IMG/VR virus record: IMGVR_UViG_3300007171_000012
DNA: 62,719 nucleotides
Source: an uncultured virus (IMG/VR IMGVR_UViG_3300007171_000012)
Lineage: Duplodnaviria > Heunggongvirae > Uroviricota > Caudoviricetes
Strand: one strand, 5' to 3'
Positions 48,033 through 53,001 of the stretch are shown in pieces (positions within the stretch are counted from its first letter, which is position 1; each line of letters opens with the position of its first letter). The notes beneath the pieces are model-generated. The model saw only the letters and a list, made by a program, of their open reading frames with translations, made no database searches and had not been told where the DNA came from. Made by a program: the position numbers and the translations under genes.

Positions 48033-48136
48033 GGGAGTGTTGCTAATGTTGGCCATAGGGCGAAACTTATAATCTCGTAGAGCAACGGCTAGATAAGCCG
48101 TTAGTAACGTGGGTTCGATTCCCACCACTCCTACCA
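48033..48136 (+). tRNA. tRNA-Ile(TAT) with very long variable arm
   Basis: GGGAGTG/CACTCCT-ACCA, cttataa loop, AACGGCT/AGCCGTT variable stem. Confidence 0.75.
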
Positions 48137-50388: not shown

Positions 50389-50782
50389 GGGCCGCTTCTG
50401 GTTTCGACTTGATAAGTGAAATATTAACTAGCATGTAGGAGTTGATCGGATGGCTCCTTAAAAATCCGCTCAAAAAAACAAACGGCAAAAACAAAGTTGT
50501 CACCTTCCGTAAGTCTGCAAAAGTTGCCCGCAAGGCTTCTCTCGCTGCTGCGTAAGTATCACGCTCAGAAGAACGCTCGCTCTTTTCTGAGTATCAAATC
50601 GAGCAAAAACTGGGTTTGTTAATTTTTTCAGTTTAAAAATTAACTGGTGGAGGACAAAGTAGGAACTACCAAGAACCGAATGTCCCTGAGAGTGATTCAC
50701 TTTGACGAATCAAATATAAGCATGTTTGAAGGTTAATACAAATTTGTTGAGGACAGGAGTTCGACTCTCCTGCGGTCCACCA
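50389..50782 (+). ncRNA. ssrA: tmRNA
   Basis: GGGCCGC/GCGGTCC-ACCA (G3:U70), GGTTTCGAC, GCATG repeats, PK1, T arm; tag 50484-50555 GKNKVVTFRKSAKVARKASLAAA*. Confidence 0.93.
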
Positions 50783-50787
50783 ATTTT

Positions 50788-50897
50788 GGGCATGACATGG
50801 TGTAGGTGAGGGTTCGATTCCCTCTCGGTCCACTCGACGGGCTGAATGGTAGTAGTGCGGCGGCACTCTTTGGGTTCGATTCCCAACATGTCCACCA
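50788..50897 (+). ncRNA. CCA-ended RNA with two T arms and an Ala-type acceptor stem
   Basis: GGGCATG/CATGTCC-ACCA; GAGGG-TTCGATT-CCCTC and TTGGG-TTCGATT-CCCAA. Confidence 0.7.
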
Positions 50898-50903
50898 ATT
50901 AAT

Positions 50904-50970
50904 GGGGGAAAGATCGACATGCATTCAGGATCGTAGCCTGAAACGGTCGCTGCGAGTCTGGAACCCACCA
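50904..50970 (+). ncRNA. orphan small CCA-ended RNA
   Basis: GGG...CCC-ACCA; TTCAGG/CCTGAA hairpin. Confidence 0.35.
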
Positions 50971-51025
50971 AATTTTCTCAAAAACCGATTGACTTTCGCC
51001 AGAATATCGGCATAATAGATACAGA

Positions 51026-51094
51026 TTTGAGTGCTGAATGAAACGGTTACTTCATTACTCGGAAAAACCACCGTTTCAACTGTGTTGCCTCAAA
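51026..51094 (+). ncRNA. Y RNA-like #3 (short)
   Basis: TTTGAGTGC...TTGCCTCAAA, TGAAACGG/CCGTTTCA, GTTACTTC; promoter TTGACT-N16-CATAAT upstream. Confidence 0.7.
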
Positions 51095-51099
51095 CTTTT

Positions 51100-51228
51100 T
51101 GTATCATTCCAGCTTTCGCAATGAGGGTGCAGAAAAGACTCGTAGTATGCTTGAGAGGCTTCGGCCTATGACCTTGTTGAAGGTGTTGGAAGTATGCAAG
51201 CGACCTGATCGAAGGTTGGAATGATATA
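51100..51228 (+). ncRNA. orphan structured RNA within the Y-RNA cluster
   Basis: ~19-bp closing stem TGTATCATTCCAGCTTTCG/CGAAGGTTGGAATGATATA; internal GGC-TTCG-GCC. Confidence 0.55.
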
Positions 51229-51236
51229 AAAAACTT

Positions 51237-51372
51237 TTTCAGTGGCGATTTTAAACGGCTACTTCTTTATTATGGTAAATAAAAGGTCTTGGTTCGAATC
51301 CAAGCTGGGCGTAGATGCCTTGTGGTGTAATGGTAGCATCAAAAACTATCCGTTTTTACCTATTCCCTGAAA
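51237..51372 (+). ncRNA. YrlA-type Y RNA #4
   Basis: TTTCAGTGG...TTCCCTGAAA, GCTACTTC; T arm CTTGGTTCGAATCCAAG precedes D arm TGGTGTAATGGTAGCAT. Confidence 0.8.
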
Positions 51373-51382
51373 TTCTTCTCTT

Positions 51383-51496
51383 TAGGTGGCGCAAATTGCA
51401 GTTACTTCATAATCCCACGGGCGGTTCGGTTCGATTCCGAGTATGGTGTAATGGTAGCACTCCTGTTCAAAAAGCCTGTAATTAATTATTCCCCTA
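51383..51496 (+). ncRNA. YrlA-type Y RNA #5 (minimal acceptor-like stem)
   Basis: TAGGTGG...TTCCCCTA, GTTACTTC, TCGGTTCGATTCCGA then TGGTGTAATGGTAGCAC. Confidence 0.75.
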
Positions 51497-51690
51497 TTTT
51501 TTCTATGAAACCTTACGGACAAAAACTTTCAAAATCTCGCTTGGGCATTCATGCCAGCGACCATTGCGGTTGTGAAACTTGCAATACTTATAATTGGAAA
51601 AAATCAAAAACAACAGCGCGAAAAACCGCTAAACAAAAAATCTCCGAAGAAATCCTTGACTACGAGGAAAATATAGATACAATTAACGAC

Positions 51691-53001
51691 ATGAAGACCA
51701 ACGTAAAAAATACTCCGAAGCCAATTCGCACTCACGAAGGCGCGGTAGCGAAAAGAATCAAGCCTCTTGAAGAACTTCGACGTTCTGTTATGGCTTGTAT
51801 GTTGTGGGAAAATTCTTTTTATGAATCTGGCGTGACTATCGCAGATCGTATCAAGGATCTCGTAGCAAAAGTTAGTGGCAAAGAAGCAATGGAAATTGCT
51901 ATTGAAGCTCGCGAAAACATGAAGCTCCGTCATACTCCTTTGTATATTGCGCGACTCATGGCTCAAAATCCAAAGCAGCGTGAATATGTTGCTGATACTC
52001 TGTCTCGCATCATCCAGCGTGCAGATGAGCTTTCTGAATTTCTTTCTATTTATTGGAAGGAAGGAAAGTGTCCAATTGCTAATCAAGTCAAGAAGGGTCT
52101 TGCGACTGCTTTCACTAAGTTCGATGAATATGCCTTGGCAAAATACAATCGAGATGGTGCCGTTAAGTTGAAGGATGTTCTTTTCATGGTTCATGCTCGC
52201 CCAAATTCTAAGGCGCAGGAAGATCTTTGGAAGCGTCTGGTTAACGATGAACTCAAGACTCCTGATACTTGGGAAGTTGAACTCTCAGCTTCTAAGGATA
52301 AAAAGGCTTCTTGGACTCGCCTTCTCAATGAGAAGAAGCTTGGAGCTTTGGCTCTTCTTCGAAATCTGCGCAACATGGAACAAGCTGGCGTCAATGAAAA
52401 GTTGATCCGCGAAAGTTTGGTAAACATGAAGACTGATCGTGTTCTTCCTTTCCGTTTTATTTCTGCTGCGCGTAATGCGCCTAAGTATGAAGCTGAACTT
52501 GAAGAGTCCATGCTGAAGAGCTTGGATAAGCACGAAAAGCTTTCTGGCAAGACTATTATCCTTGTTGATATTTCGGTTTCGATGCATAGCAAGGTTTCTG
52601 GCAAGAGCGACATTTCTCGTCTCGATGCTGCATGTGGTGTTGCAATGCTTCTTCGTGAAATTTGCAGCACTGTCGAAGTCCACAGCTTCTCTTATGAAAC
52701 AAAGCTTGTTCCTTCTCGTAGGGGCTTCGCCCTTGCCGAAGCAATCAGCAAGTCTCAGAAGCACCAAGGCACCTATCTTGGTGAATCAGTTAAGAAGATG
52801 AATCTTCGATCTGGTGATCGCCTCATTGTCATCACAGATGAACAATCTGCTGACCGAGTTCCTGATCCCGTTTTTGATAAGGCTTACATGATCAATGTGG
52901 CCTCTTACAGAAATGGTGTAGGCTATGGAAAGTGGACACATGTGGATGGCTGGAGCGAATCTGTGGTTGATTACATTATTGCTCTTGAAAAAGACCAATA
53001 A
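51691..53001 (+). CDS. rsr: Ro60/Rsr TROVE-domain RNA-binding protein
   Basis: THEGA, FYESG, AR....LRH.P, FDEY.LAKY, TWE..LS, ALLRNLRN, VLPFRF; vWA DISVSM...VITDEQ; promoter TTGACT-N16-TACAAT before ATG. Confidence 0.93.
   Translation: MKTNVKNTPKPIRTHEGAVAKRIKPLEELRRSVMACMLWENSFYESGVTIADRIKDLVAKVSGKEAMEIAIEARENMKLRHTPLYIARLMAQNPKQREYVADTLSRIIQRADELSEFLSIYWKEGKCPIANQVKKGLATAFTKFDEYALAKYNRDGAVKLKDVLFMVHARPNSKAQEDLWKRLVNDELKTPDTWEVELSASKDKKASWTRLLNEKKLGALALLRNLRNMEQAGVNEKLIRESLVNMKTDRVLPFRFISAARNAPKYEAELEESMLKSLDKHEKLSGKTIILVDISVSMHSKVSGKSDISRLDAACGVAMLLREICSTVEVHSFSYETKLVPSRRGFALAEAISKSQKHQGTYLGESVKKMNLRSGDRLIVITDEQSADRVPDPVFDKAYMINVASYRNGVGYGKWTHVDGWSESVVDYIIALEKDQ

What the first reader, a model, noticed from the sequence alone, without database searches (positions are those of the whole stretch)
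50788..50897. Two-headed tRNA mimic with alanine identity directly after tmRNA
Seen: acceptor GGGCATG/CATGTCC-ACCA (G1-C72, G2-C71, G3.U70, A73), an unpaired D-loop-like ACATGGTGTAG and a terminal T arm (50870-50886). Where the anticodon arm should be there is a second module: T arm (50808-50824), a 7-bp looped stem TCGGTCC/GGGCTGA, a D-loop-like ATGGTAGT and a hairpin AGTGC/GCACT. No anticodon is present. Known: G3.U70 is the AlaRS determinant and the tmRNA tRNA-like domain lacks a D stem. Inference: an mRNA-less tmRNA-like RNA (possible SmpB/EF-Tu ligand) or a double-elbow decoy.
Basis: partly seen in the sequence, partly recalled or inferred. Interest (0 to 1): 0.74.

Follow-up and report, generated by a model that had tools for sequence, protein, structure and literature searches.

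The report
Two-headed alanine-type tRNA mimic in phages
A 110-base phage RNA gene next to a tmRNA folds into two tRNA 'top halves' whose acceptor strands are swapped between the halves, is conserved with compensating changes in about a dozen other phage-like contigs, matches no described RNA family, and its job is still unknown.

Summary
ARAGORN calls nothing there, and Rfam gives no hit reaching any family's cut-off.

It is not a decaying tRNA fusion. I found 12 further distinct copies of the same architecture in viral and metagenome contigs, 56-87% identical for the seven aligned to the window. Ten of the 13 lie in same-strand tRNA arrays, and each of five phage records has one copy.

Covariation supports the strand-swapped pairing: the 5' strand of unit A pairs with the 3' strand of unit B, and the reverse. 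These helices are 98% and 91% paired, against 69% and 64% for the unswapped alternative.

The open head has G1-C72, G2-C71, G3.U70 and A73 in 13 of 13, although no scan that found 11 of the 12 others required it. Three members are circular permutations in which the other head is the open one.

Links to tmRNA (adjacent only here) and to the downstream Ro60/Y-RNA cluster (2 of 13) are not general. The tmRNA-specific D-loop motif is absent.

Relatives without alanine-like stems exist, including in cultured mycobacteriophages.

Best reading: a new tRNA-mimic family, matured like a tRNA and probably recognised by AlaRS. The downstream function is only inferred.

The parts
50788..50794 (+). outer (open) acceptor, 5' strand GGGCATG
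   Evidence: Pairs with 50887-50893. 80 of 84 cells are canonical over 12 members, and pairs 4-6 are 36 of 36 canonical with 3-4 pair types each. 98.2% paired in alignment A4.
50795..50807 (+). linker 1, D-loop-like, with GG at 50799-50800
   Evidence: Unpaired in the MFE structure. A GG sits at linker position 3-6 in 11 of 12 members. Docking of this GG on a T loop is inferred.
50808..50824 (+). T arm 1 (GAGGG TTCGATT CCCTC)
   Evidence: 58 of 60 cells canonical, with 4-5 pair types at pairs 1-2. The GGTTCGANTCC core was required by the scan patterns.
50825..50845 (+). inner (closed) acceptor-like head: TCGGTCC + A73-like A + loop CTCGAC + GGGCTGA
   Evidence: 75 of 84 cells canonical; pair 7 pairs in only 5 of 12. 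91.1% paired in A4. Loop length is 4-12 nt across members. The patterns imposed GGTCCA and GGGC. L325 and the permuted members give support free of that bias.
50846..50853 (+). linker 2, D-loop-like ATGGTAGT
   Evidence: An RTATGGTAY-like motif recurs in window-type and wider-class members.
50854..50867 (+). hairpin AGTGC-GGCG-GCACT
   Evidence: The stem covaries (GTGC/GCAC, GGC/GCC, TGCC/GGCA, GGAC/GTCC) under a mostly GACG loop. 75.7% paired in A4. The terminator scan flagged it only because of the downstream T run.
50870..50886 (+). T arm 2 (TTGGG TTCGATT CCCAA)
   Evidence: 57 of 60 cells canonical. Compensatory TTGGG/CCCAA to TCGGG/CCCGA change in L124 and L158.
50887..50897 (+). outer acceptor 3' strand CATGTCC + discriminator A + CCA
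   Evidence: U70, C71, C72 and A73 in 12 of 12 members and in L325. CCA is encoded in 5 of 13.
50389..50782 (+). tmRNA gene immediately upstream (context, not part of the element)
   Evidence: ARAGORN; Rfam RF00023 at 113.2 bits.
51451..53001 (+). Ro60/TROVE ORF downstream (context)
   Evidence: Pfam TROVE E=1e-17; phrog_850 E=5.4e-48. Relatives match from residue 77-94 onward, so the start is probably over-called.

Best explanation
Window 50788-50897 is a gene for a stable non-coding RNA of a previously undescribed phage family, a 'two-headed' tRNA mimic.

The RNA consists of two acceptor-stem/T-arm minihelices, the top half of a tRNA, present twice. They are joined at a five-way junction. 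The 5' acceptor strand of unit A pairs with the 3' strand of unit B to form the open head that carries the 5' and 3' ends. The 5' strand of unit B pairs with the 3' strand of unit A to form the head closed by a short loop.

Each unit has a stem-less, GG-containing D-loop-like linker. This linker probably docks on a canonical T loop to form a tRNA elbow (inferred). There is no anticodon arm.

The gene sits in a tRNA array a few bases from its neighbours. Most likely it is cut out by RNase P and the tRNA 3'-end machinery (inferred from context and anatomy).

Both heads carry the alanine identity set: G1-C72, G2-C71, G3.U70 and A73. At least the open, CCA-bearing head is therefore probably a substrate of host AlaRS (inferred from the established identity rules; not tested).

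Because it cannot decode, I think it acts as a decoy or sponge. It would occupy a host factor that reads the acceptor/T-arm/elbow half of tRNA(Ala) or tmRNA. Candidates are AlaRS, EF-Tu, and an acceptor-end-directed tRNA toxin or defence nuclease. This last step is a guess.
For: Anatomy and absence from tRNA and Rfam detectors.

Homologues. 12 further distinct window-type copies were found.
- L124, beside an 81%-identical Ro60 gene.
- L158, L150 and L181, from 45 viral loci.
- L193, L197, L210, L214, L220, L228 and L245, from 58 metagenome loci.
- L325, from a scan that left the inner head free.
- Identity to the window is 87% for the two closest and 56-66% for five others.

Covariation.
- Alignment A4 (8 sequences): 92.1% of cells paired against 74.9 +/- 1.9 in shuffles (0 of 500 reach it). 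15 of 29 pairs change on both sides, against 9.3 in shuffles. Slid controls give 35-55%.
- RNAalifold predicts the outer stem, both T arms and a 6-bp inner stem on its own.
- Swapped helices are 98.2% and 91.1% paired. The unswapped alternative gives 69.1% and 64.3%.
- At acceptor positions 4-7, swapped pairing gives 44/48 and 39/48, and cis pairing 25/48 and 18/48.

Alanine identity.
- GGG...UCC + A on the open head in 12 of 12 and in L325. The patterns did not constrain that head.
- In the window, only tRNA-Ala among 30 tRNA genes has GG-G3.U70-A73. The tmRNA has it too.

Circular permutation. In L220, L228 and L181 the hairpin-bearing unit comes first. The head that is closed in the window type is therefore open there, and it is again alanine-like.

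Context. 10 of 13 members have same-strand tRNA genes in the fetched flanks, with spacers of 1-5 nt to neighbours in the window, L158 and L181. There is one copy in each of five phage records. There are none among 17 hits in 185,579 species genomes.
Against: - No expression or processing data. The only RNA-library contigs laid on the region cover the tmRNA body, which says nothing about the element.
- Folding energy is ordinary (z = -0.92). Single-sequence MFE recovers the whole fold in only 3 of 10 other members, and the outer stem in 8 of 10.
- The inner head's GGGC/GGTCCA was imposed by my scan patterns for most members.
- Relatives of the wider class lack alanine features. L308 has a non-alanine inner hairpin with a 3-nt loop. 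L350 and L313 have A3-U70. JoeDirt has G1, A2, A3. The architecture, not alanine identity, is therefore the common denominator.
- No partner protein co-occurs. SmpB, CCA-adding enzyme, AlaRS, peptidyl-tRNA hydrolase and FemAB are each absent from all five phage records, of which one is complete.
- The decoy function is unsupported by any direct evidence.
Confidence: 0.55

Rival explanations
1. It is an mRNA-less tmRNA-like accessory RNA. It would be charged with alanine, bound by SmpB and EF-Tu, and would work with or against the neighbouring phage tmRNA in ribosome rescue.
For: - It lies 5 nt after a tmRNA.
- It has an alanine-type acceptor, a stem-less D-loop-like segment with GG at the same distance from the acceptor as in the phage's own tmRNA, and a T arm.
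- A tmRNA is also near the element in G004 (about 2.4 kb away) and L220 (about 0.8 kb away).
Against: - The element is directly adjacent to a tmRNA in 1 of 13 members, and within about 3 kb in 3 of 13.
- Complete genome G003 has the element, but its best tmRNA match scores only 33.7 bits, below the cut-off of 47.
- The UUCGAC/GGAC motif of the tmRNA tRNA-like domain (Rfam consensus) is missing in both halves.
- No SmpB gene is present in any of the five phage records.
Confidence: 0.1
2. It is part of the Ro60/Y-RNA system encoded just downstream. T arm 1, the closed stem and the D-like segment have the same order as the tRNA-like module of YrlA-type Y RNAs. The element would then be a Ro60-associated or Ro60-regulated RNA.
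For: - A TROVE/Ro60 ORF lies at 51451-53001.
- Y-RNA-like genes lie between the element and that ORF.
- The T - acceptor-like stem-loop - D order matches the YrlA description (PMC4201824, passages read).
- M. smegmatis YrlA with a 7-bp acceptor-like stem is cut by RNase P and receives CCA (same passages).
Against: - TROVE is present in only 2 of 5 phage records holding the element, G001 and G005.
- Only 1 of 17 Ro60-related viral loci holds the element.
- A sigma70-like promoter (50989-51016; the same place in L124) separates it from the Y RNA cluster.
- The element lacks the 5' GNCGAA-type strand and the GTTACTTC/TTGTTCC motifs that I saw in all 14 Y-RNA regions read.
Confidence: 0.08
3. It has only a role in cis. 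It would be a tRNA-shaped punctuation or processing signal that lets RNase P and RNase Z release the tmRNA 3' end or separate transcripts, and the excised RNA itself would have no function.
For: - It sits between the tmRNA and the next transcription unit.
- tRNA-like punctuation elements are known elsewhere (t-elements in plant mitochondria; listing only).
Against: - A single acceptor/T-arm minihelix would be enough for that role.
- The second head, both GG linkers and the tetraloop hairpin are nonetheless conserved with covariation.
- The element also lies between ordinary tRNAs that need no help.
Confidence: 0.1
4. It is a decaying tandem pair of tRNA(Ala) or tmRNA pseudogenes, or integration-site (att) remnants, with no function.
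For: - Many loci found by the same patterns are exactly that: a tRNA-Ala followed by partial 3' repeats. All 17 genome hits and most metagenome hits are of this kind.
- Each half resembles a truncated tRNA.
Against: - The compensatory changes follow the swapped pairing, not the tandem (cis) pairing.
- Conservation extends to 56-66% identity.
- Each phage record has a single copy.
- Loop-length changes of 2 nt, with intact stems around them, argue for selection on the fold.
Confidence: 0.03

Closest known systems
tRNA-like domain of tmRNA (Rfam RF00023)
   Same: A 7-bp acceptor with G3.U70, A73 and CCA; a D-loop analogue without a stem that carries GG; a canonical T arm; encoded in phage tRNA arrays.
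   Different: No tag reading frame, no pseudoknots and no UUCGAC/GGAC motif. There are two heads instead of one. Only partial T-arm matches to the tmRNA families, 12.6-18.7 bits against cut-offs of 47-84.
Two-piece (circularly permuted) tmRNA genes (Rfam RF04321)
   Same: The gene order T arm - acceptor 3' strand - spacer - acceptor 5' strand, as at the inner head. Permuted and unpermuted gene orders both occur within one family.
   Different: At 110 nt it has no coding piece. Cleavage of the spacer is not shown. Scores are 12.6 and 18.7 bits against a cut-off of 47.
YrlA-type bacterial and phage Y RNAs (Chen et al. 2014, PMC4201824; abstract and passages read)
   Same: A tRNA mimic with a T arm, a closed acceptor-like stem-loop and a D element in that order. 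It is encoded near Ro60 in this window. [quoted passage not shown]
   Different: No Ro60-binding stem or motif. It has its own open acceptor end with CCA, a second T arm and no D stem. A Ro60 gene is present in only 2 of the 5 phage records that hold it.
Phage T4 stable RNAs rnaC and rnaD (species 1 and 2)
   Same: Small stable RNAs of unknown function encoded inside a phage tRNA cluster next to tRNA-Arg (annotation). rnaC ends with a T arm and an acceptor-like stem.
   Different: One T arm at most, no alanine-type acceptor and no sequence similarity. That they are RNase P products is recalled, not checked here.
tRNA(Ala) acceptor/T-arm minihelix (laboratory AlaRS substrate; PMC11392972 and PMC9976931 seen as search listings only; the rest recalled)
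   Same: Each head is an acceptor/T-arm minihelix with G3.U70 and A73, the features that suffice for alanylation of minihelices.
   Different: This is a natural gene with two minihelices joined by strand exchange. Charging has not been tested.

Membership tests
tRNA (RF00005) | Cloverleaf with D arm and anticodon arm, detectable by ARAGORN or the Rfam model | tested here: not met
   ARAGORN makes no call at 50788-50897. No RF00005 match even at E<=10.
tRNA (RF00005) | 7-bp acceptor stacked on a canonical T arm, with discriminator base and CCA | tested here: met
tmRNA (RF00023 and clan) | Alanine-type acceptor (G3.U70) plus T arm | tested here: met
tmRNA (RF00023 and clan) | UUCGAC...GGAC D-analogue motif of the tRNA-like domain | tested here: not met
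   The motif is present in the window's tmRNA and in the Rfam consensus (alignment). It is absent from both halves of the element.
tmRNA (RF00023 and clan) | Tag reading frame and pseudoknots; model score above the gathering cut-off | tested here: not met
   The element is 110 nt with no room for either. ARAGORN reports no tag. Best scores are 17.3 to 18.7 bits against cut-offs of 47 to 84.
YrlA / bacterial Y RNA | Ro60-binding stem formed by the RNA's ends, with the conserved 5' GNCGAA-type strand | tested here: not met
   The motif is named in PMC4201824. It is seen in neighbouring Y RNAs but not in the element, whose ends form an acceptor stem.
YrlA / bacterial Y RNA | tRNA-like module in the order T arm - acceptor-like stem-loop - D arm | tested here: inconclusive
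   The order is the same, but the D element has no stem.
YrlA / bacterial Y RNA | Encoded within about 4 kb of a Ro60 (TROVE) gene | tested here: inconclusive
   True in the window and in L124. No TROVE gene in G002, G003 or G004.
AlaRS substrates (tRNA-Ala identity set) | G3.U70 with G1-C72, G2-C71 and A73 in a 7-bp acceptor | tested here: met
   Open head in 13 of 13 members; closed head in 13 of 13, partly imposed by the scan patterns.
AlaRS substrates (tRNA-Ala identity set) | Actual aminoacylation with alanine | not testable with these tools
   Needs a charging assay.

The most novel reading that the evidence does not exclude
The 'loop' of the closed head is really a spacer. RNase P cuts 5' of its GGG, and the 3' machinery trims to the conserved A and adds CCA. 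The mature RNA would then be a non-covalent pair of two ~50-nt RNAs, held together only by two intermolecular acceptor stems. That makes a bivalent molecule with two alanine-accepting ends and two elbows.

For:
- A73 follows the closed stem in 13 of 13 members, although the loop varies from 4 to 12 nt (part of this is imposed by my scan patterns).
- CCA is encoded there in 3 of 13 (L210, L214, L325).
- In the circularly permuted members the roles of the open and closed heads are exchanged.
- M. smegmatis YrlA gives a precedent (PMC4201824).

Against:
- The window's closed head reads A-CTC in a genome where 29 of 30 tRNA genes encode CCA.
- Class relatives have 3- to 5-nt loops on stems that are not alanine-like.
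Probability: 0.22. Interest if true: 0.9.

Novelty: new variant of a known kind. Interest (0 to 1): 0.72.

Why it matters
Phage tRNA arrays are usually read as codon-usage aids or as spare parts against anticodon nucleases. This array also holds a conserved member that cannot decode. It keeps two tRNA elbows and alanine-type acceptor ends, with an acceptor-strand exchange I have not seen described.

If it is charged or bound by AlaRS, EF-Tu or a defence factor, it would be a new way for phages to manipulate the tRNA-handling machinery. It would also be a natural bivalent tRNA scaffold.

The wider class exists unannotated in cultured Mycobacterium smegmatis phages (JoeDirt, Silverleaf and others), so its expression and function can be tested directly.

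Tried and rejected
**Similarity to GenBank phages.** BLAST of the region (801 nt) and of the element (110 nt) found nothing. An exact 25-mer scan of viral contigs also found nothing.

**D-loop plus T-arm pattern.** It gave the known homologue and one ordinary tRNA-Ala, L141.

**Generic two-T-loop scan.** None is a window-type member by my script.

**Genome collection scan.** All 17 hits are tRNA-Ala followed by partial repeats.

**Covariance model R1.** It is not specific. It also scores tandem tRNAs at E of about 1e-9 to 1e-5. I therefore used it only to align members and to count copies per phage record.

**Sequencing runs.**
- Only contigs were available.
- One RNA-library contig covers tmRNA positions 50517-50752, and none covers the element. 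This is no evidence either way.
- DNA contigs of two runs confirm that tmRNA and element stay linked.

**Partner-gene searches.** SmpB, PolyA_pol (CCA-adding enzyme), AlaRS, Pth and FemAB all came back empty in five phage records, four of them incomplete.

**Literature.** Four full-text searches returned no paper describing a two-T-arm or strand-swapped tRNA-like RNA of phages. Subscription journals are not covered. The supplementary tables of PMC4201824, which list phage YrlA loci, were not opened.

**L239.** Dropped as doubtful: its outer stem has A3-U70, linker 1 is 44 nt and T stem 1 is imperfect.

**Protein coding.** Not tested by search. The 2-nt loop-length differences between close homologues argue against a conserved frame.

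Full report
**1. The observation**

The window looks like part of a large phage. It shares 98% of its sampled words with a 93-kb IMG/VR record, G001. It holds 30 tRNA genes and a tmRNA at 50389-50782.

Five bases after the tmRNA's CCA lies the 110-nt element, 50788-50897. The minimum-free-energy fold reproduces the drawing exactly.

The fold has these parts:
- a 7-bp outer acceptor GGGCATG/CATGTCC with G3.U70, then ACCA
- T arm 1
- a closed 7-bp stem TCGGTCC/GGGCTGA
- a 5-bp hairpin with a GGCG loop
- T arm 2

The folding energy is unremarkable: z = -0.92, and 33 of 200 shuffles fold as well. ARAGORN calls nothing at the element. No Rfam family reaches its cut-off there. At E<=10 only sub-threshold fragments appear: T-arm matches to tmRNA models, mascRNA, and two plastid UTR families on the minus strand.

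**2. Surroundings**

Upstream of the tmRNA is an HNH endonuclease ORF. The 516-codon ORF at 51451-53001 downstream is a Ro60/TROVE protein (Pfam E=1e-17, phrog_850 E=5e-48).

Between the element and that ORF lie three things:
- a 73-nt CCA-ending piece
- a sigma70-like promoter (50989-51016)
- several Y-RNA-like genes, some with the T arm / closed stem / D arm module described for YrlA (PMC4201824, abstract and passages)

This made a Y-RNA connection the first hypothesis to test.

**3. Homologues**

Of 17 viral loci encoding Ro60 relatives (47-81% identity), only the closest, L124, holds the element. I then scanned by architecture.
- A pattern for two T loops with GTCCA after the first gave 45 viral loci. 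Four of them are members: L158, L163 (the L124 contig), L181 and L150.
- A stricter pattern gave 58 metagenome loci. Seven are new members (L193, L197, L210, L214, L220, L228, L245), two are repeats of known ones, and one is doubtful, L239.
- The same pattern gave 17 loci in 185,579 species-representative genomes. None is a member. All are tRNA-Ala genes followed by partial repeats.
It added L325.

In total there are 13 distinct window-type members. The covariance model R1 finds exactly one copy in each of the five phage records. Identity to the window is 87% for L124 and L158 and 56-66% for five others.

**4. Is the fold selected?**

On the model-guided alignment A4 (8 sequences), 92.1% of cells pair, against 74.9 +/- 1.9 in shuffles (0 of 500 reach it). 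Fifteen of 29 pairs change on both sides, against 9.3 in shuffles. Sliding the partners by 1-3 columns drops pairing to 35-55%. A4 is fitted to the model, which favours the structure. However, RNAalifold run freely on A4 predicts the same outer stem, both T arms and a 6-bp inner stem.

In my anchor-based table of 12 members, the 3' strands are defined only by their place after the T stem:

| Helix | Canonical cells | Notes |
|---|---|---|
| Outer stem | 80 of 84 | 3-4 pair types at each of pairs 4-6 |
| Inner stem | 75 of 84 | pair 7 pairs in only 5 of 12 |
| T arm 1 | 58 of 60 | |
| T arm 2 | 57 of 60 | |

The key question is swapped versus tandem pairing. The two 5' strands both begin GGG and the two 3' strands both end TCC, so only positions 4-7 discriminate.

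| Measure | Swapped, outer | Swapped, inner | Cis, unit A | Cis, unit B |
|---|---|---|---|---|
| Pairs at acceptor positions 4-7 | 44/48 | 39/48 | 25/48 | 18/48 |
| Cells paired in the whole helix, A4 | 98.2% | 91.1% | 69.1% | 64.3% |

Two cautions apply.
- Members were chosen by a script that required good swapped pairing. The eight different outer helices are nonetheless each self-complementary.
- Single-sequence folding recovers the full architecture in only 3 of the 10 other members folded, and the outer stem in 8 of 10.

**5. Alanine identity**

The open head has G1-C72, G2-C71, G3.U70 and A73 in 13 of 13. The patterns did not constrain it.

The closed head has the same set in 13 of 13, but those patterns imposed GGTCCA and GGGC on it. 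Two observations free of that bias support it:
- L325 was found without any constraint on the inner head. It reads AGATTCC-A-CCA...GGGATCT, with G3.U70.
- In three members (L220, L228, L181) the hairpin-bearing unit comes first. The head that is closed in the window type is open there, and it is again alanine-like.

In the window itself, only tRNA-Ala among 30 tRNA genes shows GG-G3.U70-A73. The tmRNA shares it. That G3.U70, helped by A73 and G2-C71, suffices for AlaRS, even on minihelices, is established knowledge that I recall. No charging was tested.

**6. Circular permutation and the wider class**

BLAST of L220 hit an unannotated spacer in five cultured M. smegmatis phages: JoeDirt, Silverleaf, Zaria, Wamburgrxpress and Calm (7 records).

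That 121-nt stretch folds into the same five-way junction: outer stem, T arm, closed 6-bp stem, hairpin and T arm (z = -2.2). Its stems are not alanine-like. The shared block, hairpin GGGTAGCTCCC plus T arm, precedes the outer 3' strand in JoeDirt and the inner 3' strand in L220. That is what a circular permutation would give.

The free-inner scan also showed other relatives:
- one with a non-alanine closed stem (L308)
- several with no closed stem (L350, L313, L315, L286, L369)
- a group with an extra anticodon-like arm (L284 group)
- one with three T arms (L324)

The constant core is therefore an acceptor, two GG linkers and two canonical T arms. The alanine-type second head is a feature of the window's subfamily.

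**7. What it is not**

*tmRNA accessory.*
- Direct adjacency to a tmRNA occurs only here. A tmRNA above the Rfam cut-off is near the element in 3 of 13 members.
- Complete genome G003 has the element without a tmRNA above the cut-off, without SmpB and without TROVE.
- The UUCGAC/GGAC motif is absent.

*Y RNA.*
- There is no Ro60-binding strand.
- TROVE is present in 2 of 5 phage records.
- A promoter-like site separates the element from the Y RNA cluster.

*Pseudogenes or att remnants.* These are excluded by the swapped covariation.

**8. Mechanism**

Shown:
- the conserved fold
- the strand swap
- the identity nucleotides
- the tRNA-array context, with 1-5-nt spacers to neighbours

Inferred:
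- excision by RNase P and the 3' machinery
- two elbows formed by GG-to-T-loop docking
- recognition by AlaRS

Guessed:
- a decoy or sponge role for a factor that reads the top half of tRNA(Ala) or tmRNA

The bolder two-piece model is set out under the novel case. The window's own closed head (A-CTC, in a genome where 29 of 30 tRNA genes encode CCA) argues against it here. The encoded inner CCA in L210, L214 and L325 argues for it.

**9. Expression**

This could not be tested. Only assembled contigs were available, and the RNA-library contigs cover the tmRNA body only.

The DNA contigs of two runs show that tmRNA and element stay linked in relatives. They also show that window 50892-50964 is an indel flanked by a CCACCAA repeat.

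**10. Novelty**

No Rfam 15 family matches. Four full-text searches found no description.

The nearest known things are:
- the tmRNA tRNA-like domain
- permuted tmRNA genes
- YrlA
- in concept, the T4 stable RNAs rnaC and rnaD of the tRNA cluster

I file it as a new variant of a known kind, tRNA-mimic non-coding RNAs, with an architecture that has not been described.

Noticed in passing
window 51027-51095, 51233-51372, 51385-~51480; ORF 51451-53001: A cluster of Y-RNA-like genes (one simple, two with a T arm and D arm) lies upstream of a phage Ro60/TROVE gene. The listed ORF start overlaps the last Y RNA and is probably over-called, because relatives match only from residue 77-94 onward.
   Followed up: partly
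window 50892-50964: A 73-nt piece ending in CCCACCA, flanked by the direct repeat CCACCAA, is absent from related DNA in two sequencing runs and from L124. It has a 6-bp stem with a 7-nt loop but is not called as a tRNA.
   Followed up: partly
window 48033-48136: A 104-nt tRNA-like gene with a 7-bp acceptor, a T arm, ACCA and a long internal insertion. Rfam tRNA scores 38.5 bits and the tmRNA model 33.5 bits. ARAGORN makes no call.
   Followed up: partly
window 51101-51226: A long-range inverted repeat (TATCATTCCA ... TGGAATGATA) encloses about 105 nt between two Y-RNA-like genes. It is unexplained.
   Followed up: no
L389:1432-1552 (Mycobacterium phage JoeDirt NC_042313; also Silverleaf, Zaria, Wamburgrxpress, Calm): An unannotated 121-nt two-T-arm RNA with the same five-way architecture lies between tRNA-Lys and tRNA-Asn. 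It is at least 99% identical in 7 records of 5 cultured phages.
   Followed up: partly
L388:1470-1531 (Roseobacter phage DSS3P8 KT870145); also L195, L206/L217, L213/L234: Unannotated single 'mini tRNA(Ala)' genes. They have a 7-bp G3.U70 acceptor paired in cis, a short D-like segment, a T arm and ACCA, but no anticodon arm. Each lies next to ordinary tRNA genes.
   Followed up: no
L022, L093, L105, L027 (viral contigs); L284, L298, L354, L372, L377, L381; L324: Further families of tRNA-like RNAs with two T arms (three in L324). One is closed by AGTCAG/CTGACT. Another has an extra anticodon-like arm.
   Followed up: no
L040, L041, L053, L057, L063, L064, L089, L092, L109, L160, L166: A recurrent motif, ...CTTACAGCAA... 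followed by a T arm, lies directly after tRNA genes in many viral contigs.
   Followed up: no
L146, L151, L154, L164, L184; L276, L287, L290 and many others: tmRNA 3'-end fragments (GGAC + T arm + acceptor 3' strand) lie after tRNAs or beside tRNA-like hairpins in viral contigs. They may be attachment-site copies.
   Followed up: no
L191, L225, L255 (Saccharibacteria MAG): A complete tRNA-Ala is enclosed by a ~15-bp inverted repeat and followed by a tmRNA-like 3' piece. The arrangement may be a permuted tmRNA.
   Followed up: no
L124:600-1125: In the closest relative, the tRNA-Leu(CAA) that precedes the element in L158 has lost its 5' part. What looks like a minus-strand ORF abuts the remaining 3' end. 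The two-headed element is intact.
   Followed up: no
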